A DNA stretch of 35,403 nt from an uncultured Thermotogaceae bacterium (GCA_965613295.1 CBFDVG010000001.1:1-35403), one strand, 5' to 3'; positions 12,048 through 29,013 are shown, numbered from the stretch's first letter. Made by a program: numbers and translations. Notes: generated from the letters alone by a model not told the origin.

Positions 12048-12415
12048 AACACAGCGCAGATTTGAGGTTTGAACTCGAAAGCGACTCATTTGAAGGTGTT
12101 TTTCAGGACTTTGCCGATTTGCTCTTTGATTTGTGCCAACCAACGTTGGCGGACGAAATCTTCGTCAAGACATATGAAGTCACAAGCGAAAGCTTTGATG
12201 ATACCGTTTTCGACGTGGTTAATGACTGGATTTACACAATTTACGGGCAGAGATTTTTCCCATTCAGATGTTACCTGAATAGCGGTATTTTACGTTGCAC
12301 CTTTAAGAGAATATCTGTGATGAATGGCATAGAAATTAAAGCTCTAACATATCACGACTTGAGGTTCAAAGAAGAAGCTGGTAAGATCAAAGCAAAGGTG
12401 GTGTTTGACGTTTGA
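12032..12415 (+). CDS. Archease family protein
   Basis: The N-terminal [10 protein letters not shown] motif (EH[ST]AD) and a size of about 127 aa fit archease. The ATG lies 16 nt inside the gyrA 3' end. Confidence 0.7.
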
Positions 12416-13011
12416 AAGGACTTACCAAGAGGCAAAGGGATGTTTTGAATTTTATAAACGCCTACATCAGTAAGTATGGATTCTCTCCGAGTATAAGAGA
12501 CATTGCTCGAGAGTTCAGGATAACGCCTCGCGGAGCTTCGATACACTTAATTGCGCTTGAAAAGAAAGGGTACATAACCCGATCGAAAAAAGCGAGAAGT
12601 GTGAGGGTTGTCAACCGAATCGAAGGAATAAAGCTCCCACTTGTTGGAACGATAGCCGCGGGAAACGCCATCGAGGCCCTGGAAAACCAAACTGAGCTCA
12701 TTGAGGTACCGATGAGTATGGTTAAATCAGGATATGAGCACTTCCTGCTGCGAGTAAAGGGAACGAGCATGATCGAAGAACATATAATAGACAGAGACTT
12801 AGTTGTTATAAGAAAACAAAACACAGCTTCCAATGGCGATATTGTGGCTGTACTCGTAGACAATGCCGATGCAACCTTGAAAAAGTTTTACGCGAAATCT
12901 GACAAAGTGATCCTTAAACCAGCAAACAGAGAACTGAAACCTTTAGAACTGGAAAGTAGCAGAGTGAAAATCTTAGGAAAACTGGTTGGAGTGATAAGAA
13001 CTTATGAATGA
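12412..13011 (+). CDS. lexA: LexA repressor (S24 self-cleaving transcriptional repressor)
   Basis: N-terminal LTKRQRDVL...GFSPSIRDIA wHTH, AAG cleavage site, catalytic GTSM Ser and downstream TLKKF Lys. The TTG start overlaps the archease stop. Confidence 0.9.
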   Translation: MKGLTKRQRDVLNFINAYISKYGFSPSIRDIAREFRITPRGASIHLIALEKKGYITRSKKARSVRVVNRIEGIKLPLVGTIAAGNAIEALENQTELIEVPMSMVKSGYEHFLLRVKGTSMIEEHIIDRDLVVIRKQNTASNGDIVAVLVDNADATLKKFYAKSDKVILKPANRELKPLELESSRVKILGKLVGVIRTYE

Positions 13012-13369
13012 AGAACGCAGAAGCCATCTCGCTGATATAGTTTCTCATGGTGATATCCACATCGTCAAACTCTTATCAGAGCTGGACCTCAATACGGCCC
13101 CATTTTTCAAGAAAATGGTAAAAGAAGAGCTTATCGCAAAGGGTAAGAAGAAAGTTATTATTGATTTTTCAGAGTGCAAATATTTGGACAGCTACGCTCT
13201 GGGAGTTTTGATGAGTCTTGACAAACATTTCAAACTCAGTGGCGGAATAATGGTTCTTTGCAACCTTGACTCAAACCTGAAGAGAATATTCAACTTAACT
13301 TTACTGAACACTATTCTTTCGATTCGTGAAAACCTGAATGACGCTTTACAAGCACTGGGAGCCTTCTGA
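13004..13369 (+). CDS. STAS-domain protein (anti-sigma-factor antagonist, SpoIIAA/RsbV-like)
   Basis: IIDFSECKYLDSYALGVLMSL carries the conserved D-S phospho-site context. 121 aa. 8-nt overlap with lexA. Confidence 0.75.
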   Translation: MNEERRSHLADIVSHGDIHIVKLLSELDLNTAPFFKKMVKEELIAKGKKKVIIDFSECKYLDSYALGVLMSLDKHFKLSGGIMVLCNLDSNLKRIFNLTLLNTILSIRENLNDALQALGAF

Positions 13370-13405: not shown

Positions 13406-13655
13406 TCACTCATAAAAGGGAGAAAGCAGGAAAAGTAGAACTCTCCCTCTTTTCCCGTTTTGGATCGGTAATAAAGCTCATCTACACCCATCCTGAAAAG
13501 GAAAATTTTTGAAGATGGACTTAGCTTTTGAATTTTATTTGCTATGTGTTTTACTATATGATGTTAAATGATAAAACCCCCGCTGTGAAAATTGATTTTG
13601 GAAAAAAGCGACAAGATTATAATTTGCATTCCTTATGATCAAGAGTTAATGAGGT
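13406..13655. repeat. Direct repeat copy 1 (250 bp), left boundary of the R-M island
   Basis: Identical to 17186-17439 except for a 4-nt CATA indel. A degraded extension of similarity reaches back to about 13390 (versus about 17170). It contains a hairpin-plus-T-run (AGGGAGA...TCTCCCT CTTTTCCCGTTTT). Confidence 0.95.
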
Positions 13656-13780
13656 ATAACCAGGAACTTTTAGGTCATAGAAGCTCAAAAACAACAGGAA
13701 TTTATAACCATGTAAGTACAAGGAACCTTTCTGAAATAAAGAGTCCACTCGATAGCTTTTTAAAAGGAAGCAAAACATGA
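13656..13780 (+). pseudogene. Tyrosine recombinase/integrase 3' remnant (about 40 C-terminal codons)
   Basis: QELLGHRSSKTTGIYNHVSTRNLSEIKSPLD matches the LLGH-x5-T-x-IY-x-HV box II region containing the catalytic Tyr. Recognisable homology begins at the direct-repeat junction, and upstream catalytic boxes are absent. Confidence 0.75.
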
Positions 13781-13892
13781 GCGAAAAGACAAAAAAGCAA
13801 AGTTCATCCAGAGAAAGGTATATGTGAATTGTTCGCATATGAACAAGTTGTCCGAAATTGCGGGCTTCTATATCTCTGGAGGTGAATGAAGA

Positions 13893-14579
13893 ATGGGTGA
13901 CATAACAAGAGAAATAACCTACTTTGAATATTGTGGTGAAATAAATACCGAAAAAGTTTTGTCCCTTGCTAGAAAGAGATGCGAAAAACTAGGAATTAAG
14001 AAAGTAGTTGTCGCCTCAGAAACGGGTAGAAGCGCACTCAAAGCCCTCGAAATCTTTCATGGGATGAATATAAAAATGATTGTTGTTACCCACTACCCTG
14101 CGAGTACATGGGGACCGAAAGGTGACATCCCTATCGGACTTATGAGAAAAGAATACTCTAAAATACGGGAGAAATTACTAAAAAGAAGTGTCAAAATTAT
14201 TCAGGGCACAAGACCTTTTGCCCCTCCATCCAGGCACATTAACTGGGAATATCCAACACCTGAAGGTATTATAAATAAGACACTTGAAATTTTCGGTGCA
14301 GGTACAAAAATAGCTATTGAAGTGGCTGTTATGGCCACAGATGCTGGGGAAGTAGATGAAGGCGAAGAAATCATATCCTGCGCAGGTACATACAAAGGTT
14401 TGGATACGGCGCTGGTTGTAAAAACGGCGTATAGTATGAACTTCTTTAAGAACTTTGAGGTTAAAGAAATAATCGCCAAGCCCAGATGCAGAGTGAAAGA
14501 ACTCCCCGAATACAAATTTAAAAACTGGAAAGGTGACTTGAATAAATACTATGAATGGAAGGTGGAGAGATCTGAATGA
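13893..14579 (+). CDS. Pyruvate kinase C-terminal (alpha/beta) domain-like protein of unknown function
   Basis: YFEYCGEINTEKVLSLARKRCEKLGIKKVVVASETGRSALKALE and FGAGTKIAIEVAVMATDAG resemble the stand-alone PK_C-like family. SD GGAGGTGA lies upstream. Confidence 0.55.
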   Translation: MGDITREITYFEYCGEINTEKVLSLARKRCEKLGIKKVVVASETGRSALKALEIFHGMNIKMIVVTHYPASTWGPKGDIPIGLMRKEYSKIREKLLKRSVKIIQGTRPFAPPSRHINWEYPTPEGIINKTLEIFGAGTKIAIEVAVMATDAGEVDEGEEIISCAGTYKGLDTALVVKTAYSMNFFKNFEVKEIIAKPRCRVKELPEYKFKNWKGDLNKYYEWKVERSE

Positions 14580-14621
14580 TTCCCTGTAGATTTAGATATG
14601 ATCTCTTTCCGGAGCCCGCAA

Positions 14622-14750
14622 CTCTCCGCTCGCTGTCGCTCGCTTCGGTGCTGACGCACTCGGACAACAGGCGGGTATCTGGCTTCGCTACGCTTCGCCC
14701 AAATCCTTCGCTATCGCTCAGGACTTCAGATACCCGCCAAACGTTGTCTG
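14622..14750 (+). repeat. GC-rich island element A with a long hairpin, immediately 3' of the PK_C-like ORF
   Basis: Perfect 12-bp stem GGCGGGTATCTG (14670-14681) / CAGATACCCGCC (14727-14738), plus an outer stem GACAAC (14663-14668) / GTTGTC (14743-14748). The 45-nt loop is rich in TCGCT motifs. Homologous to element B. Confidence 0.8.
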
Positions 14751-14802
14751 AAATCGCCCGAAGTCTCAGTAAAATGTATAAGATTAAAAAGGAGTGGTGA
14801 AT

Positions 14803-16077
14803 ATGGAAAACTGGGCTAGAATAATAATCGGTGATAGTCGTAAAATGGTTGAAATCAAAGATAATTCCGTTCATATGGTGGTTACTTCTCCACCGTATTG
14901 GTCTATAAAGAACTACGGTATCAAAAATCAAATCGGATATGGTCAGAGTCTCCATGATTATCTAAAAGATCTCTATCTGGTTTGGAAAGAATCATATAGA
15001 GTCTTGGACCCTGGACGAAGACTAATTGTTAATATAGGAGATCAATTTGCAAGATCAATAATTTATGGAAGATACAAAATTATACCACTCCACGCGGAAA
15101 TAATTGCACAATGCGAAGATATTGGTTTTGATTACATGGGCTCAATTATATGGCAGAAAAAAACTACAATGAATACGACAGGTGGGGCAAATGTGATGGG
15201 ATCTTATCCTTATCCACCCAATGGAATGATTGAAATAGATTATGAGCATATTCTTATCTTTAAAAAACCGGGGAAAAGTAAGAAAATTTCCAAAGAACTT
15301 AAAGAAAGCTCCAAACTCACTAAAGAAGAATGGAAAGAATATTTTTATGGGCACTGGTATTTCAGAGGTGCAAGACAAATAGATCATGAGGCCATGTTTC
15401 CTGATGAACTACCAAAAAGATTAATAAAGATGTTCACATTTACTGGTGAAACTATACTAGATCCGTTTTTGGGAAGTGGGACAACAGCAAAAGTTGCATT
15501 GGAATTAAATAGAAATGCTATTGGATATGAAATAAATGAGAAATTCTTAGAAAGTATAAAGAAAAAGGTTAAAATTAATGGCTTAAATCTGTTCAATAAA
15601 AAAATTGAAATTATAAAAAGAGATGAAACAATTATTACTGATAGCATAGATTATATTCCCAGAATAAAAGATGCAAAACCAGTTATAGACCCTGATAAGT
15701 TAAAATTTGGAAAGAACGAATTTTATAAGGTTGTTGATATATTAGATGATGGAAGCTTAAGAGTGGATACCGGCGTTATTGTAAAATTTAGAGGAATTCT
15801 AATAACTGATTTGAAGAGTGCAAGATCATATTTAGAACGATATGTTTTAAAAAAGAAAGTATATCTCAAATTTGACAAAGGGTATGTGGCTAATGAACAT
15901 TCTATGGAAGCATATGTATATCTCAAAAACAAAATATTTATTAACGCATATCTAATAAAAAATGGGCTGGCTGTTACAAACAAAAACGGTGATTTTGATT
16001 TAAAAAAACGGTTTATAGAATTAGAGGTAGATTCCCAAAATATTACAGAACGTGGTAGCTCTAAGGTTGTGCAATAG
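14803..16077 (+). CDS. Type II DNA methyltransferase, beta-class N4/N6 family (SPPY motif suggests m4C), fused to a C-terminal degenerate staphylococcal-nuclease-like domain
   Basis: Motif IV TSPPYW precedes motif I DPFLGSGTT (beta permutation). The C-terminal roughly 100 aa align by eye to the SNase fold (FRGILITD, YLKFDKG, EAYVYL, INAYLIKNGLA). ATG 14803 lies behind GGAG. Confidence 0.85.
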   Translation: MENWARIIIGDSRKMVEIKDNSVHMVVTSPPYWSIKNYGIKNQIGYGQSLHDYLKDLYLVWKESYRVLDPGRRLIVNIGDQFARSIIYGRYKIIPLHAEIIAQCEDIGFDYMGSIIWQKKTTMNTTGGANVMGSYPYPPNGMIEIDYEHILIFKKPGKSKKISKELKESSKLTKEEWKEYFYGHWYFRGARQIDHEAMFPDELPKRLIKMFTFTGETILDPFLGSGTTAKVALELNRNAIGYEINEKFLESIKKKVKINGLNLFNKKIEIIKRDETIITDSIDYIPRIKDAKPVIDPDKLKFGKNEFYKVVDILDDGSLRVDTGVIVKFRGILITDLKSARSYLERYVLKKKVYLKFDKGYVANEHSMEAYVYLKNKIFINAYLIKNGLAVTNKNGDFDLKKRFIELEVDSQNITERGSSKVVQ

Positions 16078-16088
16078 GAGGCATATTC

Positions 16089-16706
16089 ATGGAATTTAAA
16101 ATAAAAGTTGAAGAAATACAGAGACTAATGGAAATAGAGAGCCCAGATTTCCCAAAATACACGACTCAAATACTTAATTTAGCCAATCAAAATGCTCAAG
16201 CTACGAGGCCTAAAGTTGTTGGACAAATGAGTGAACTTATAAAAGAATTTACCGGTAGAACCTTGGAAGAATGGGAAGAATGGTATCTAAAGCGCTATCC
16301 CGATTCAATTGATAAAGCAACTAAAAAAATATTAGAAATGATTGATAATTTTAGAGATGTTATAAACCAAATTGACGAGACTATGATTAGGCAATGGGTT
16401 AGAGATTTAGTAGTTGTAAAAACTTTTATTGGTTTGAGGTTCCAGAAAGCAGTTTTAAAAAAGATTGCAGAGAAATTTATGACTCATTATAAGCTATCAA
16501 CCCCTGAAGATGAAAGTAAAGGCATCGATGGTTACATAGAAAATATTCCTATTAGTCTAAAACCCACCACATATAAATATAAAAAAATGTTGGCAGAGAG
16601 TTTAGAGGGATATGTTATCCATTACGAAAAACAAAAAGATGGTTTAAGAATAATAGTTCCAGAAAAATTAGAAAATCAATTAAAATCTATTAATAAAGAC
16701 GATTAA
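16089..16706 (+). CDS. Candidate type II restriction endonuclease partner of the methyltransferase
   Basis: It starts 11 nt after the MTase stop, behind AGGAGG, on the same strand. Composition is AT-rich like the MTase gene. Possible PD-(D/E)xK-like GIDGYIENIPISLKP. The assignment rests mainly on context. Confidence 0.55.
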   Translation: MEFKIKVEEIQRLMEIESPDFPKYTTQILNLANQNAQATRPKVVGQMSELIKEFTGRTLEEWEEWYLKRYPDSIDKATKKILEMIDNFRDVINQIDETMIRQWVRDLVVVKTFIGLRFQKAVLKKIAEKFMTHYKLSTPEDESKGIDGYIENIPISLKPTTYKYKKMLAESLEGYVIHYEKQKDGLRIIVPEKLENQLKSINKDD

Positions 16707-16724
16707 AGTGAAACCTCAGACGAT

Positions 16725-16828
16725 TCTCCGCTTCATTCGGTGCTATCGCACTTGGACAACAGATAGATATGTGGCTCGCTACTACTCGTCCAAATTTGCC
16801 TACAGCAACTTTTTTATCCGCCAAACGT
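16725..16828 (+). repeat. Island element B, a diverged copy of element A, immediately 3' of the endonuclease ORF
   Basis: Shares the blocks CTCCGCT, TTCGGTGCT, CGCACT, GGACAACAG, GGCT(T)CGCTAC, CCAAAT and CCGCCAAACGT in the same order as element A. The 12-bp stem of A is not conserved. Confidence 0.7.
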
Positions 16829-16914
16829 ATGGTAACATTATTTCTCAAATAATGAATAAGTAAAGAATTTGGCTTAAAATACAGAGCAATTTTGGCTATC
16901 AAAGGAGGTATAAA

Positions 16915-17130
16915 GTGAATATATTACTAGGTATATTAATGTTAATGGTTGCCATAGGTTCATTTTTATCTTTTAGCGGTTTGACAAAAAGCAATTTCAT
17001 CGTCTACAAAATCCTTGTAGCTCGCTCAAGAATACTGTGGGGCAAAAGTGATAAAGTTCATGCCTTTTATTCAGTAATTGGAATTTTGATTATCATAATG
17101 GGATTATTGCTATCCATTGGTTTATTTTAA
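16915..17130 (+). CDS. Small membrane protein (71 aa, 2 TM)
   Basis: GTG start 7 nt after AAAGGAGG. Two hydrophobic segments (ILLGILMLMVAIGSFLSF, VIGILIIIMGLLLSIGLF). Confidence 0.5.
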   Translation: MNILLGILMLMVAIGSFLSFSGLTKSNFIVYKILVARSRILWGKSDKVHAFYSVIGILIIIMGLLLSIGLF

Positions 17131-17185
17131 AAGTAATAGTTTCACAAACTAATAAGGGCAAGAGATGCTAAGGTATCTTTCTGTT

Positions 17186-17439
17186 TCACTCATACATAAA
17201 AGGGAGAAAGCAGGAAAAGTAGAACTCTCCCTCTTTTCCCGTTTTGGATCGGTAATAAAGCTCATCTACACCCATCCTGAAAAGGAAAATTTTTGAAGAT
17301 GGACTTAGCTTTTGAATTTTATTTGCTATGTGTTTTACTATATGATGTTAAATGATAAAACCCCCGCTGTGAAAATTGATTTTGGAAAAAAGCGACAAGA
17401 TTATAATTTGCATTCCTTATGATCAAGAGTTAATGAGGT
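17186..17439. repeat. Direct repeat copy 2 (254 bp), right boundary of the R-M island
   Basis: See copy 1. It ends 16 nt from the stop of the minus-strand dehydrogenase gene. Confidence 0.95.
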
Positions 17440-17455
17440 GTAATTGCAATACCCT

Positions 17456-18412
17456 TTATGCCTGTGCCACCTTAAAGATAACTTTCAAAGCACCTGATGC
17501 CGCTCTTTCAAAGGCTTCTGAATAATCCTGCAAAGGATAAGCGTGTTCGATTAACTCTGAAACGGACAGTTTCTTTGATTCAAGAGCTTTCAGGGCTCGT
17601 TCAAACGACCCACAGCGGGAGCCTATGATCGAGATTTCATTCACCACCAGAATGCTTGAATCAATTCTGAGATCTTCGGCTGTCGTGCTCTTGAGTACCA
17701 CCTTACCCATCGGTTTCGTGATTTTGATAGCTATTGAAACTGCACGGGGATTCCCAGTTGCATCAATGGTGATATCAAAATATCGGTCAAAGCTCTCAAG
17801 TGTTTCTGCCATCTGCGTTGGAACTCCGTGTTTTTTTACAAGTGAAAGTTTCTCCTTGTGTTTGCCAAACACAACATGGTCTATATCCTCGAAGCTGAGC
17901 GCTTTGGAAATTAAGATGCCCAGCTTTCCATCACCCAAAACCGCCACTTTCAACCCCTTTTCAAAACGCACTTGTTCGGTAATTCGAAAAGCAGCTGCCA
18001 GGGGTTCAGTAAAAACTGCTTCTTCGTCACTTATGGTGTCATCAACTACGTGGAGATTTTCTTCAGGTAGAATCAGATACTCAGCAAACGCACCGTTCCA
18101 GCGATTTATTCCAAGAACTCTCATATTTCTGCAGTGCCTGCTGAGTCCTGCTTTGCAGAATTCACAGTTGTTACATGGCACGTTTATCTCACCCACAACT
18201 CTTTTGTTCAAAAGATCTGGAGATCCTTCTTTCACTGTTCCCACAAATTCATGCCCAGGTATTCCCGTGAACTTCATATACCCCTTCACTATCTCGAGGT
18301 CCGTGTTACAAATACCCGCAAGCCCCACCATCACAAGGGCATACCTTTTTCTTTCAGGCAGGCTGACATTTCTCAGGGAAAGACGGTTCCCATCAAACCA
18401 CAGAGCCTTCAC
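17456..18412 (-). CDS. Zinc-dependent alcohol/polyol dehydrogenase (MDR family)
   Basis: Catalytic Zn ligands GICNTDLE and GHEFVG, structural Zn CNNCEFCKAGLSRHC, and Rossmann VLGDGKLG. Confidence 0.85.
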   Translation of the reverse strand: MKALWFDGNRLSLRNVSLPERKRYALVMVGLAGICNTDLEIVKGYMKFTGIPGHEFVGTVKEGSPDLLNKRVVGEINVPCNNCEFCKAGLSRHCRNMRVLGINRWNGAFAEYLILPEENLHVVDDTISDEEAVFTEPLAAAFRITEQVRFEKGLKVAVLGDGKLGILISKALSFEDIDHVVFGKHKEKLSLVKKHGVPTQMAETLESFDRYFDITIDATGNPRAVSIAIKITKPMGKVVLKSTTAEDLRIDSSILVVNEISIIGSRCGSFERALKALESKKLSVSELIEHAYPLQDYSEAFERAASGALKVIFKVAQA

Positions 18413-19463: not shown

Positions 19464-19539
19464 GGGGCCGTAGCTCAGCTGGGAGAGCGCTACCTTCGCA
19501 CGGTAGAGGTCGTGGGTTCAAGTCCCATCGGCTCCACCA
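19464..19539 (+). tRNA. tRNA-Ala (anticodon CGC), CCA encoded
   Basis: Cloverleaf GGGGCCG/CGGCTCC acceptor with the G3:U70 alanine identity pair, D-arm TAGCTCAGCTGGGAGAGC, anticodon loop TTCGCAC, T-arm GGTTCAAGTCC, and 3' ACCA. Confidence 0.95.
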
Positions 19540-28875: not shown

Positions 28876-28895
28876 ATCCCGCCAGCCGGCGGGAT
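28876..28895 (-). terminator. Riboswitch expression-platform hairpin / intrinsic terminator
   Basis: On the minus strand, AUCCCGCC-GGCU-GGCGGGAU is followed by UUUGUCUUU, between the aptamer and the SD of the thiB-like gene. Confidence 0.65.
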
Positions 28896-28904
28896 CAATT
28901 GCGT

Positions 28905-28997
28905 TCCGCTCCCTACGCCGGCATTACCCGGATCAGGTTCTCAGGGTCAAGGGTATCCACCCTCATCTCAGCCCCGGAGTAGGGGCTCCCCTGCGGA
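28905..28997 (-). promoter_or_regulatory. TPP (THI-box) riboswitch aptamer
   Basis: The minus strand reads TCCGC-AGGGGAGC...GGCTGAGA...ACCCTTGA...GAACCTGATCCGGGTAATGCCGGCGTAGGGA-GCGGA. The P1 helix TCCGC/GCGGA and the conserved CUGAGA and ACCUGAUC.GG.UAAUGCC.GCG blocks are present. Confidence 0.9.
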
Positions 28998-29013
28998 CTT
29001 GTTTTTCCATTCT

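What the first reader, a model, noticed from the sequence alone, without database searches (positions are those of the whole stretch)
14622..16828. Paired GC-rich elements placed directly 3' of consecutive ORF units: an attC/cassette-like architecture flanking the R-M pair
Element A (14622-14750) begins about 40 nt after the PK_C-like stop. Element B (16725-16828) begins about 20 nt after the endonuclease stop. The two share the same ordered blocks: CTCCGCT, TTCGGTGCT, CGCACT, GGACAACAG, GGCT(T)CGCTAC, CCAAAT and CCGCCAAACGT. By eye this is roughly 70 percent identity with indels. They stand out as GC-rich patches in an AT-rich island.

Element A folds into an 86-nt hairpin. The outer stem is GACAAC/GTTGTC, then an asymmetric internal loop (1 x 4 nt), then a perfect 12-bp stem GGCGGGTATCTG/CAGATACCCGCC, and a 45-nt TCGCT-rich terminal region. 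Several features match integron attC sites and cassette arrays: the order AAC...GTT on the ORF strand, the position right behind an ORF, the element length, the sequence similarity between copies, and a neighbouring tyrosine-recombinase remnant ending in KSPLD. Sedentary chromosomal integrons have homogeneous repeats of about 120 nt, and they often carry R-M or toxin cassettes.

There are caveats. GGACAAC/GTTGTCT keeps only the AAC/GTT invariants of RYYYAAC/GTTRRRY. The spacer geometry is not canonical. Element B has lost the stem and reads GTATGG instead of GTT. The recombinase remnant is co-oriented with the cassettes rather than divergent. Alternative explanations are a MITE/REP-like element or an RNA-stabilising or terminator structure. 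If the attC interpretation is real, this would be an integron-like or novel cassette-recombination system in a lineage where such systems are barely described.
Basis: partly seen in the sequence, partly recalled or inferred. Interest (0 to 1): 0.7.

Follow-up and report, generated by a model that had tools for sequence, protein, structure and literature searches.

The report
Integron-like gene cassette recombination sites
The two GC-rich elements are the recombination sites that end two mobile gene cassettes in a decayed integron-like array, and they belong to a large cassette system shared by archaea and bacteria that differs from classical integrons and that I could not find described.

Summary
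Elements A (14611-14754) and B (16715-16833) are real, related, and far beyond chance.

The attC/cassette reading is supported. A 22-nt motif from A and B occurs in about 70 archaeal and bacterial MAG loci. There the elements form co-oriented arrays (56 of 57 neighbours, about 1.1 kb apart) lying 3' of co-oriented ORFs (54 of 59). The main stem covaries, and the bottom DNA strand folds better in 59 of 64 sites. Cassette ends map to G|TT. One natural cassette presence/absence polymorphism sits exactly at an attI site downstream of the recombinase gene.

The window holds a 44-aa recombinase remnant, an attI site (13820-13853), cassette 1 (PK_C-like), cassette 2 (MTase plus MjaI) and a truncated third unit. 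A looks intact. B is a chimeric, dead site.

The system is not a canonical integron:
- The associated recombinases lack the IntI-specific domain and carry an N-terminal HARP-like domain.
- The stems have no conserved extrahelical bases.
- Many sites, including A and B, have a 60-nt 5' extension whose arm pairs with the start of its own cassette.

Verdict: a new variant of a known kind, pending an IntegronFinder check. The island is flanked by a 249-bp direct repeat.

The parts
13411..13659. Left copy of the 249-bp exact direct repeat that flanks the island. The repeat finder reports 254 bp at 99%, 13406-13659.
   Evidence: Independent assemblies break their contigs inside this repeat.
13646..13780 (+). 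C-terminal 44-codon remnant of the cassette recombinase (LMRYNQELLGHRSSKTTGIYNHVSTRNLSEIKSPLDSFLKGSKT*).
   Evidence: PF00589 C-terminus. TIGR02249 positions 280-314, E = 2.9e-7. 68% identical to the C-terminus of the intact L039 recombinase.
13820..13858 (+). attI-type site. It has an inverted repeat, ATATGTGAA (13820-13828) with TTCGCATAT (13832-13840), then GAACAA, then the R box GTTGTCC (13847-13853) with the crossover between G13847 and T13848, then GAAAT.
   Evidence: It matches the attI consensus ...ATATGAAC(G/A)AGTTRNNNGAAAT found downstream of 8 intact recombinase genes and several remnants. The insertion point was shown empirically in L083 versus L085.
13848..14743 (+). Cassette 1 (896 bp). 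It holds the start arm TTGCGGGCTTC (13858-13868), the PK_C-like ORF (13893-14579) and element A up to G14743.
   Evidence: The start arm is complementary, with one G.T pair, to A's 5' arm GGAGCCCGCAA at 14611-14621 (direct reading). The rule is generalised. Pfam PK_C.
14611..14754 (+). Element A, an intact 'long' attC-type site. Parts in order:
- 5' arm, 14611-14621
- ACTCTCCGC, 14621-14629
- two small hairpins, up to 14660
- R'' GGACAAC, 14662-14668
- 12-bp stem, 14670-14681 with 14727-14738
- spacer AAAC
- R' GTTGTCT, 14743-14749
- GAAAT
   Evidence: (nhmmer E = 8.8e-37).
14576..14800 (+). 74-codon ORF that runs through element A. Its ATG overlaps the PK_C-like stop (ATGA), and its stop lies 2 nt before the MTase ATG. 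It may serve translational coupling across the site.
   Evidence: This is inference only. Conservation in the family is at the nucleotide level and is not codon-like.
14744..16827 (+). Cassette 2 (2084 bp). It starts TTGTCTGAAATCGCCCGAAG and holds an N4/N6 DNA methyltransferase with a SNase-like C-terminus (14794-16077), a MjaI-family endonuclease (16089-16706) and element B.
   Evidence: Pfam. The same cassette type with the identical 20-nt start occurs in the archaeon locus L061, where homology begins at the G|TT. A homologous cassette sits behind an intact recombinase in Caldisericum locus L039.
16715..16833 (+). Element B, a decayed and chimeric long attC-type site. R'' GGACAAC is at 16754-16760. 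The 5' stem arm is of the GATATGTGG type and the 3' arm is of the TTTTATCCGCC type, so no stem forms. R' reads G|TATGG, which is probably GTTATGG minus one T.
   Evidence: (E = 2.5e-20). Subtype comparison with L039 and L070 sites.
16828..17189 (+). Truncated third unit. It holds a 71-aa predicted membrane ORF (16915-17130) and has no terminal attC. It abuts the right copy of the repeat.
17195..17443 (.). Right copy of the 249-bp exact direct repeat. It ends 12 nt before the stop of the convergent ADH gene (17456-18412, minus strand).

Best explanation
What it is. A and B are attC-type recombination sites that close two gene cassettes of an integron-like array, now orphaned, in a Thermotogota chromosome. 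The array reads:
1. a recombinase 3' remnant;
2. an attI site;
3. cassette 1, the PK_C-like gene plus A;
4. cassette 2, the methyltransferase and MjaI endonuclease plus B;
5. a truncated third unit.

How it works. In intact relatives, a tyrosine recombinase gene lies immediately upstream and is co-oriented with the cassettes. Circular cassettes are inserted at the G|TT of the attI site. Cassettes are exchanged at the G|TT of each attC-type site, so each cassette starts with TTRNNNGAAAT and ends with ...AACG.

Anatomy of the site (shown):
- inverse core boxes, RYYYAAC and GTTRRRY;
- a covarying 11-12-bp stem around a terminal region that contains CCCAAAT;
- greater stability of the bottom strand;
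- in 'long' sites such as A and B, a 60-nt 5' extension (ACTCTCC plus two hairpins) whose outer arm is complementary to the first ~14 nt after GAAAT of the same cassette. That helix can flank the site only in an excised circle.

Inferred:
- The recombinase acts on the folded bottom strand, as IntI does.
- Its N-terminal HARP/XPB-DRD-like domain replaces the missing IntI insertion in reading DNA structure.
- In this window A is still competent, but only if a recombinase is supplied in trans. B is dead.
For: Family size and array behaviour:
- There are about 70 true loci in the genome scan, and nhmmer gave 135 hits.
- 56 of 57 neighbouring elements lie on the same strand, with median spacing 1.1 kb.
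- The longest ORF is co-oriented with the elements in 54 of 59 intervals.
- Cassette contents are typical of integron cassettes: methyltransferases, restriction endonucleases, HepT/MNT, HicAB, ParE and GNAT.

Structure:
- 9 of 12 stem pairs show compensatory changes, and 0 of 500 shuffles reach the observed score.
- The bottom strand is more stable in 59 of 64 sites (p = 4e-11), and the top-strand GC skew is -0.16. Canonical attC sites show the same bias (PMC5027507).

Crossover at G|TT:
- The variable bases of R' are perfectly complementary to the R'' of the next site in 9 of 21 cases. The figure is 3 of 21 for a site's own R'', and the background is 12%.
- In L083/L084 versus L085, a 579-bp cassette is present or absent exactly at the attI G|TT, with an identical recombinase and identical flanks.
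- Homology between window cassette 2 and L061 starts at the G|TT.

Own-cassette arm pairing: the best helix scores 10.1 on average with the cassette's own start and 6.2 with the adjacent downstream sequence. Many are 14-bp perfect helices specific to one cassette. In the window, 13858-13868 pairs with 14611-14621.

Link to the recombinase:
- L039 and 7 of 7 recombinase-anchored loci that have enough downstream DNA carry co-oriented arrays. All 8 anchored loci, L096 included, have the attI consensus.
- The window's attI matches that consensus.
Against: - There is no intact recombinase in the window, so activity here is not shown.
- No experiment or read-level evidence shows recombination by this recombinase clade.
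- The curated attC covariance model could not be run.
- The stems lack the conserved extrahelical bases that IntI needs for strand choice.
- Wobble counts do not discriminate between strands: 23 bottom-strand G.T against 15 top-strand G.T.
- R'/next-R'' complementarity fails in 12 of 21 pairs, possibly because intermediate sites were missed.
- The HARP assignment is weak: it falls below Pfam's gathering score, the PDB sequence hit has E = 0.015, and the Foldseek E-values are about 0.06-0.14.
- The role of the 5' extension and of the arm helix is unknown and could be at the RNA level.
Confidence: 0.85

Rival explanations
1. Ordinary integron remnant (CALIN). On this reading, A and B are canonical attC sites served by a standard IntI encoded elsewhere, and the neighbouring XerA-like recombinases are coincidental or are merely truncated IntIs.
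For: - The core boxes match RYYYAAC/GTTRRRY in the short sites.
- Length, hairpin, bottom-strand bias and cassette contents are those of integrons.
- VchIntIA is the best PDB hit of the recombinase, and the ...SPLD tail is IntI-like.
- Archaeal integrons with attI downstream of intI are already published (PMC9668308).
Against: - All recombinases tested lack about 40 aa at the IntI additional domain. They score below the TIGR02249 cut-off (218-233 against 265) but above the cut-off for NF040815.
- No canonical IntI was found by tblastn in about 85 loci.
- The cassette indel sits at the attI of such a recombinase.
- The geometry differs: a 1 x 4-5 spacer, a perfect 11-12-bp stem, a conserved GAAAT, and the 5' extension.
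- In a genome that Ghaly et al. screened (GCA_003336485.1), IntegronFinder reported a CALIN on another contig but not the two sites on QENH01000184.1.
Confidence: 0.08
2. Structured RNA element in the cassette mRNA. On this reading, the conserved 5' extension, the stem, and the pairing of the 5' arm with the cassette start act in the transcript. Possible roles are stabilisation, processing, or translational coupling through the small ORF. DNA recombination would be secondary or absent.
For: - As RNA, A folds with z = -3.1 on the top strand.
- The arm pairing would enclose each ORF in its own transcript.
- An in-frame ATG, often as ATGA overlapping the upstream stop and preceded by a Shine-Dalgarno-like sequence, precedes many long elements.
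- In the window, the 74-codon ORF bridges the PK_C-like stop and the MTase start.
Against: - Rfam gives no match on A or B even at E <= 10.
- The antisense (bottom) strand folds better in 59 of 64 sites.
- Top-strand A.C mismatches (23) are not rarer than G.T pairs (15).
- RNA cannot explain the cassette indel at G|TT or the R'/next-R'' rule.
- About 13 of 71 elements have in-frame stops.
- An RNA role could still coexist with the DNA role.
Confidence: 0.05
3. MITE/REP-like dispersed repeat, or an intrinsic terminator, that happens to lie after genes.
For: The elements are GC-rich hairpins in intergenic DNA after stop codons, and there are multiple copies per genome.
Against: - Only 1 of 57 neighbouring pairs is on opposite strands.
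- The copies have a fixed polarity relative to ORFs.
- There are no terminal inverted repeats with target-site duplications around single copies.
- No T-run follows the hairpin.
- The sequence is conserved across two domains of life.
Confidence: 0.02

Closest known systems
Integrons (IntI / attI / attC), including sedentary chromosomal integrons and the archaeal integrons of Ghaly et al. 2022 (PMC9668308)
   Same: - A tyrosine recombinase gene sits next to an attI insertion site, followed by an array of co-oriented, mostly promoterless cassettes.
- Each cassette ends in a hairpin site with RYYYAAC...GTTRRRY boxes.
- The crossover is at G|TT.
- The first bases of a cassette are complementary to its own R''.
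- The bottom strand is more stable and G-rich.
- Cassettes carry R-M, toxin-antitoxin and GNAT genes.
- As in the archaeal integrons, attI lies immediately downstream of a co-oriented recombinase gene.
   Different: - The recombinase lacks the IntI-specific additional domain, which contacts extrahelical bases, and instead has a ~70-aa N-terminal HARP/XPB-DRD-like domain.
- The stems are perfect 11-12-bp helices without conserved extrahelical bases.
- The spacer is 1 x 4-5 nt.
- Primary sequence is conserved across phyla (TTCNNATAY, CCCAAAT, GAAAT after R').
- The attI site consists of two inverted-repeat units.
- Many sites carry a 60-nt 5' extension and a cassette-specific outer helix.
- The nine attC sites that Ghaly et al. 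tested look quite different.
CALIN (cluster of attC sites lacking an integrase)
   Same: The window has attC-type sites and cassettes but no functional recombinase gene.
   Different: A recombinase remnant and an attI site are still present, so this is a decayed complete platform. The sites are of the non-canonical family.
Archaeal XerA / bacterial XerC-XerD chromosome dimer resolvases (NCBIfam NF040815; PDB 5HXY, 4A8E)
   Same: The catalytic core aligns end to end with XerA and passes the NF040815 cut-off (242-250 bits against 220).
   Different: These proteins have an extra N-terminal domain and an IntI-like ...SPLD tail. They occur in bacteria as well as archaea. They sit at the head of variable cassette arrays rather than acting at a dif site.
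Insertion of restriction-modification genes with long target duplication (Furuta et al. 2010, PMC2853133)
   Same: A 3.5-kb island carrying R and M genes is flanked by a long (249 bp) near-perfect direct repeat of local intergenic DNA, and no transposase is present.
   Different: The island here is an integron-like array fragment rather than a bare R-M pair. The empty site has not been observed.
SMARCAL1 HARP domain / archaeal XPB damage-recognition domain (PDB 4O66, 5TNU)
   Same: The N-terminal domain of the recombinase family gives weak sequence matches and moderate fold matches to these structure-specific DNA-binding domains.
   Different: The domain is fused to a tyrosine recombinase rather than a helicase or translocase. 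The match is below curated thresholds.

Membership tests
Integron (sensu IntegronFinder / Mazel) | A tyrosine recombinase gene adjacent to the cassette array | tested here: met
   The window has a 44-aa C-terminal remnant at 13646-13780. Intact genes head the arrays in L039, L079, L081, L082, L083-85, L095 and L097.
Integron (sensu IntegronFinder / Mazel) | The IntI-specific additional domain (the insertion around patch III that binds extrahelical bases) | tested here: not met
   - L039 recombinase: residues 237-252 correspond to VchIntIA 172-227.
- P0075: residues 232-257 correspond to VchIntIA 171-238.
- TIGR02249 scores 218-233 against a cut-off of 265 and matches in two stretches, for 5 proteins.
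- This cannot be tested on the window's remnant, because that region is deleted.
Integron (sensu IntegronFinder / Mazel) | An attI site next to the recombinase gene, with cassette insertion at G|TT | tested here: met
   Empty versus filled attI in L085 versus L083/L084. The attI consensus was found in 10+ loci, and the window's 13820-13853 matches it.
Integron (sensu IntegronFinder / Mazel) | attC inverse core sites R'' RYYYAAC and R' GTTRRRY | tested here: inconclusive
   Short sites are canonical (GTATAAC, GCCTAAC, ATATAAC paired with GTTATAC, GTTAGGC). A and B have GGACAAC with GTTGTCT, which keeps AAC/GTT and the mutual complementarity but not the Y positions.
Integron (sensu IntegronFinder / Mazel) | A conserved hairpin with the three unpaired features (extrahelical bases, unpaired central spacer, variable terminal structure) and a bias towards the bottom strand | tested here: inconclusive
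   - Met: hairpin with covariation, a variable terminal structure, and bottom-strand stability with G skew.
- Variant: the spacer is an asymmetric 1 x 4-5 nt loop.
- Not met: no conserved extrahelical bases. A has a perfect 12-bp stem, and only one subtype has a single bulged A.
Integron (sensu IntegronFinder / Mazel) | Arrays of co-oriented cassettes bounded at G|TT, with the cassette start complementary to its own R'' | tested here: met
   In the window, TTGTCC (13848-13853) pairs with GGACAA in A, and TTGTCT (14744-14749) pairs with GGACAA in B.
Integron (sensu IntegronFinder / Mazel) | Detection by the curated attC covariance model (IntegronFinder / HattCI) | not testable with these tools
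   The model is not available, and Rfam has no attC family. There is an indirect negative: Ghaly et al.'s IntegronFinder table lists another contig of GCA_003336485.1 but not QENH01000184.1, which carries two sites. Eleven other WGS prefixes from my archaeal loci are absent from their tables. A proxy model built from their nine attC sites was abandoned because the alignment was not structure-consistent.
MITE / REP element | Dispersed copies in either orientation, terminal inverted repeats with target-site duplication, and no fixed relation to ORFs | tested here: not met
   56 of 57 neighbours lie on the same strand, and 54 of 59 intervals are co-oriented with the upstream ORF.
Rho-independent terminator | A short GC-rich hairpin followed directly by a T-run | tested here: not met
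   A's hairpin is 86 nt long and is followed by GTTGTCTGAAATCGCCC, with no T-run.
Known RNA families (Rfam 15) | A covariance-model match | tested here: not met
   There is no hit on A or B at the gathering threshold or at E <= 10.
R-M insertion with long target duplication (Furuta 2010) | R and M genes in an insert shorter than 20 kb, flanked by direct repeats longer than 30 bp that are single-copy at the empty site of a related genome | tested here: inconclusive
   The insert is 3.5 kb with M and R genes, and the repeat is 249 bp exact. No empty site was available for comparison. A related strain's contig (L001, 99.3% identical) also breaks inside the repeat.

The most novel reading that the evidence does not exclude
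The window is a decayed member of a cross-domain cassette-capture system that has not been recognised, parallel to integrons. Its proposed features are:
- a recombinase clade (more than 7,800 relatives with E <= 1e-30 among the 8,000 candidates scored in the protein collection) that branches near IntI and XerA, lacks the IntI insertion, and uses an N-terminal HARP/XPB-DRD-like structure-specific DNA-binding domain;
- a two-unit attI site;
- attC-type sites without extrahelical bases, which curated attC models apparently miss;
- cassette-specific terminal inverted repeats plus a conserved 60-nt module that complete the site only in the excised circle.

If this is right, surveys based on IntegronFinder substantially undercount cassette platforms in archaea and in anaerobic and thermophilic bacteria.
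Probability: 0.45. Interest if true: 0.85.

Novelty: new variant of a known kind. Interest (0 to 1): 0.75.

Why it matters
Integrons are the textbook platform for capturing and shuffling genes. Their definition rests on the IntI insertion and on attC sites with extrahelical bases.

This finding points to a second solution to the same problem. It has a different structure-reading domain and a different site architecture. It is spread across many archaeal phyla and across Thermotogota, Caldisericota, Desulfobacterota and others from hydrothermal and anoxic sediments, and it is loaded with restriction-modification and toxin-antitoxin cassettes.

Three things follow:
- It gives a concrete vehicle for archaea-to-bacteria gene flow. 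In this window, an archaeal-type PK_C-like gene and a MjaI-type R-M system sit in a Thermotogota chromosome.
- It suggests that current surveys miss many cassette arrays.
- It offers a natural comparison for asking how tyrosine recombinases recognise folded single-stranded DNA.

Tried and rejected
- Rfam search of the region, at gathering thresholds and at E <= 10, gave nothing on A or B.
- Coding hypothesis for the element. The frame with TCG GTG CTN is often open and has an in-frame ATG. However, conservation is uniform over all codon positions, variation sits in hairpin loops and covarying stems, and about 13 of 71 copies have in-frame stops. I rejected it as the primary constraint and kept it as a possible translational-coupling overlay.
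- Strand assignment from wobble pairs gave 23 against 15, which is not significant.
- A proxy canonical-attC covariance model from the nine attC sites of Ghaly et al. was abandoned, because MAFFT could not align the L' arms consistently.
- Other contexts of cassette 1, searched through its protein in metagenomes: nine homologs (67-76% identity), all in ordinary, apparently archaeal, chromosomal contexts without attC sites. There is therefore no independent mobility evidence for cassette 1 itself.
- SSV-type split-integrase integration as the origin of the direct repeat was rejected, because no N-terminal integrase fragment lies next to the right repeat.
- Hammerhead or other ribozyme motifs suggested by ATGA/GAAA were rejected, because the core order does not fit and Rfam is negative.
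- Literature searches for a description of this family found none. The library held is incomplete.
Full report
**1. The observation**

A and B align at 75% column identity. They share an exact 27-nt degenerate motif that no shuffle reproduces. They are GC-rich (59% and 46%) in an island that is 33.5% GC without them.

As DNA, the bottom strand of A is more stable than the top strand (-27.9 against -21.7 kcal/mol). B has no stem. The recombinase remnant ending in KSPLD is real.

I refine the boundaries to A = 14611-14754 and B = 16715-16833.

**2. The surroundings**

The host is a Thermotogota bacterium near Pseudothermotoga (DnaB 75% identical). The island lies between a STAS gene (13004-13369, plus strand) and a convergent ADH gene (17456-18412, minus strand). 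It is flanked by a 249-bp exact direct repeat, 13411-13659 and 17195-17443. An independent assembly reproduces the island without a single mismatch. Contigs from that assembly and from a MAG of a related strain end inside the repeat.

It is a small inverted repeat, ATATGTGAA/TTCGCATAT, followed by GAACAA, GTTGTCC and GAAAT (13820-13858).

**3. Relatives**

A scan of one genome per species with GGTGCTNNCGCACTNGGACAAC returned 75 loci, of which about 70 are true. Most are archaeal MAGs: ANME-1/Methanophagales, Alkanophaga, Bathyarchaeia, Aenigmatarchaeota, Thermoplasmata, Archaeoglobi, Altiarchaeales and Huberarchaeum. Bacterial MAGs include Caldisericia, Deltaproteobacteria, WOR-3 and Peptococcaceae.

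A profile built from these sequences found 135 copies, in two forms:
- The 'short' form is RYYYAAC, then A, an 11-12-bp stem, a terminal region with two small hairpins and CCCAAAT, the return arm of the stem, NNAAC, GTTRRRY and GAAAT.
- The 'long' form, which includes A and B, has GGACAAC as R''. It adds a ~60-nt 5' extension: an arm, ACTCTCCGC, a first hairpin, and TTCGGTGCTNNCGCACTC.

**4. The copies behave as cassette sites**

- Neighbouring copies lie on the same strand in 56 of 57 cases, with a median spacing of 1.1 kb.
- The longest ORF between copies is co-oriented with them in 54 of 59 intervals.
- The ORFs encode DNA methyltransferases, restriction enzymes, HepT/MNT, HicAB, ParE and GNAT proteins.
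- In the main stem, 9 of 12 pairs have compensatory changes, and no shuffle out of 500 reaches the observed covariation.
- The bottom strand folds better in 59 of 64 sites, and the top strand is C-rich. These are properties described for canonical attC sites (PMC5027507).

**5. Where the crossover is**

Three lines of evidence place it at G|TT.

First, the four variable bases of R' are perfectly complementary to the R'' of the next site in 9 of 21 array neighbours. The figure is 3 of 21 for a site's own R'', and 12% for random pairs. This is the signature expected if each cassette begins with the TTRRRY that matches its own terminal site.

Second, three metagenomes carry the identical recombinase (P0075) and identical flanks. 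L085 reads ...CGGATATAACTTG|TTATGATAGGC. L083 and L084 carry a 579-bp insert, TTGTATGC...ORF...GCATACAAC-A-stem...GAACG, at exactly that point.

Third, homology between window cassette 2 and an archaeal locus (L061) starts at the G|TT, and the next 20 nt are identical.

**6. The recombinase**

Locus L039 (Caldisericum) has an intact 353-aa tyrosine recombinase. It is followed by an attI site, a cassette, and a methyltransferase/SNase/MjaI cassette homologous to window cassette 2 that ends in a long site.

Eight further loci were chosen only by recombinase homology. All eight have the attI consensus (...ATATGAAC(G/A)AGTTRNNNGAAAT, usually preceded by a second inverted-repeat unit). All seven with enough downstream sequence have co-oriented arrays, many of them full of R-M systems. 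The window's site CGCATATGAACAAGTTGTCCGAAAT fits this consensus.

The recombinases pass NCBIfam NF040815 ('site-specific tyrosine recombinase/integron integrase') but fail TIGR02249. Their best PDB relative is VchIntIA, yet they lack about 40 residues exactly where IntI has its additional domain.

Instead they carry a conserved ~70-aa N-terminal domain:
- Pfam HARP matches 14 of 24 members, all below the gathering score.
- The only PDB sequence hit is the SMARCAL1 HARP domain, at E = 0.015.
- A confident model (pLDDT 89.7) is closest to the archaeal XPB damage-recognition domain and to HARP, with TM about 0.5 and probability up to 0.99 but E-values of about 0.06-0.14.

**7. A feature I did not expect**

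In extended sites, the ~14 nt just 5' of ACTCT are the reverse complement of the ~14 nt that follow TTRNNNGAAAT at the start of the same cassette. They do not match the DNA that abuts the site. Mean best helix is 10.1 against 6.2, and many helices are 14 bp, perfect, and different for every cassette. In the window, TTGCGGGCTTC (13858-13868) pairs with GGAGCCCGCAA (14611-14621).

These arms can flank the site only after excision and circularisation. Alternatively they could pair at the two ends of a cassette transcript. I cannot tell which applies.

**8. Reading of the window**

In order, the window holds:
- a recombinase remnant (13646-13780);
- the attI site, with the crossover between G13847 and T13848;
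- cassette 1 (13848-14743), the PK_C-like gene plus A;
- cassette 2 (14744-16827), the methyltransferase and MjaI endonuclease plus B;
- a truncated unit with a 71-aa membrane ORF (16828-17189).

A has every feature of an intact long site. B combines a 5' stem arm of one subtype with a 3' arm of another, and its R' has lost a T. It looks like the product of a deletion between two sites, and it is dead.

The closest relatives of the PK_C-like protein (67-76% identity) sit in ordinary chromosomal contexts without attC sites. Some of these lie next to a sequence I read as a proteasome beta subunit, which suggests archaeal hosts. This fits capture of an archaeal gene.

**9. Comparison with what is known**

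The system works like an integron, and in architecture it resembles the archaeal integrons of Ghaly et al. 2022, where attI lies immediately downstream of intI.

It fails the defining IntI-domain test, and it lacks conserved extrahelical bases. These two features work together in canonical integrons. The nine archaeal attC sites tested in that paper look different. One genome they screened carries two sites of this family on a contig that IntegronFinder did not flag.

Smyshlyaev et al. 2021 noted that the insertion 'is not fully conserved' in their integron-like recombinase subgroup. I found no paper that describes this site family, the attI, the arms or the N-terminal domain. The library is incomplete, so I rate this as a new variant of a known kind, with about even odds that it is truly undescribed.

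**10. The direct repeat**

A 3.5-kb island that carries R and M genes and is flanked by a long duplication of local intergenic DNA matches 'insertion with long target duplication', as reported for R-M systems (PMC2853133). Short-read graphs cannot distinguish an integrated island from a 3,784-bp circle that shares the repeat. The island has no replication gene, which favours integration.

Noticed in passing
window 13411-13659 and 17195-17443: A 249-bp exact direct repeat flanks the whole island. About 25 nt of weaker similarity (~75%) continues to the left of both copies. The pattern resembles R-M 'insertion with long target duplication'. A circle that shares the repeat cannot be excluded from short-read assemblies.
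   Followed up: partly
window 13655-13666: The junction between the left repeat and the recombinase remnant reads GAGGT|ATAACC. It therefore contains an R''-like box, GTATAAC. The equivalent point at the right repeat reads GGTGTAAT. This may be a trace of recombinase action at a secondary site, or it may be chance (roughly 2%).
   Followed up: partly
window 14576-14800: A 74-codon ORF runs through element A. Its ATG overlaps the PK_C-like stop (ATGA), and it ends 2 nt before the MTase ATG. Many long elements elsewhere have an in-frame ATG, often ATGA with a Shine-Dalgarno-like sequence. This suggests translation across the site to couple cassette expression.
   Followed up: partly
window 16762-16827: Element B is a chimera of two attC subtypes. 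The 5' arm is of the GATATGTGG type and the 3' arm is of the TTTTATCCGCC type. This is as expected from a deletion by homologous recombination across the conserved CCCAAAT region of two neighbouring sites.
   Followed up: partly
L005, L010, L014, L023, L025, L031, L040, L078 and window 13646-13780: Many arrays keep only a short C-terminal fragment of the recombinase gene next to attI, often starting near the ...ELLGH motif. The reason is unknown. Possibilities are a promoter inside the gene's 3' end, a deletion hot spot, or a detection limit.
   Followed up: partly
L086-L094 (metagenome loci): The cassette-borne PK_C-like protein has its closest relatives (67-76% identity) in ordinary chromosomal contexts. 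Some lie next to a sequence I read as a proteasome beta subunit, which suggests archaeal hosts. None has an attC site.
   Followed up: yes
L084 15764-17032 compared with L083: The same array in another metagenome carries an extra ~3-kb segment that includes a DDE transposase. The arrays therefore also accumulate insertion sequences.
   Followed up: no
recombinase family, residues 1-70 (L039 29-240; P0001-P0120): There is a conserved N-terminal domain (FPYNP..I.KIKTI.GYRWHPEEKYWS.P) with a HARP/XPB-DRD-like fold. It is absent from IntI and XerA.
   Followed up: yes
all sites, the 5 nt after R': GAAAT (or GACAT, GCAAT) follows GTTRNNN at attC-type and attI sites alike. The conserved core therefore extends beyond the classical 7-nt box.
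   Followed up: partly
window 12412-13011: A LexA gene lies two genes upstream of the island. Canonical integron integrases are under SOS/LexA control. This is probably coincidence and I did not examine it.
   Followed up: no
window 28893-29002 (-) and 19464-19539 (+): There is a TPP riboswitch (83 bits) and a tRNA-Ala(CGC). Neither is related to the finding.
   Followed up: no
L097 4003-5043: A Cas12f1-like/TnpB gene lies a few kb upstream of a recombinase-headed array.
   Followed up: no
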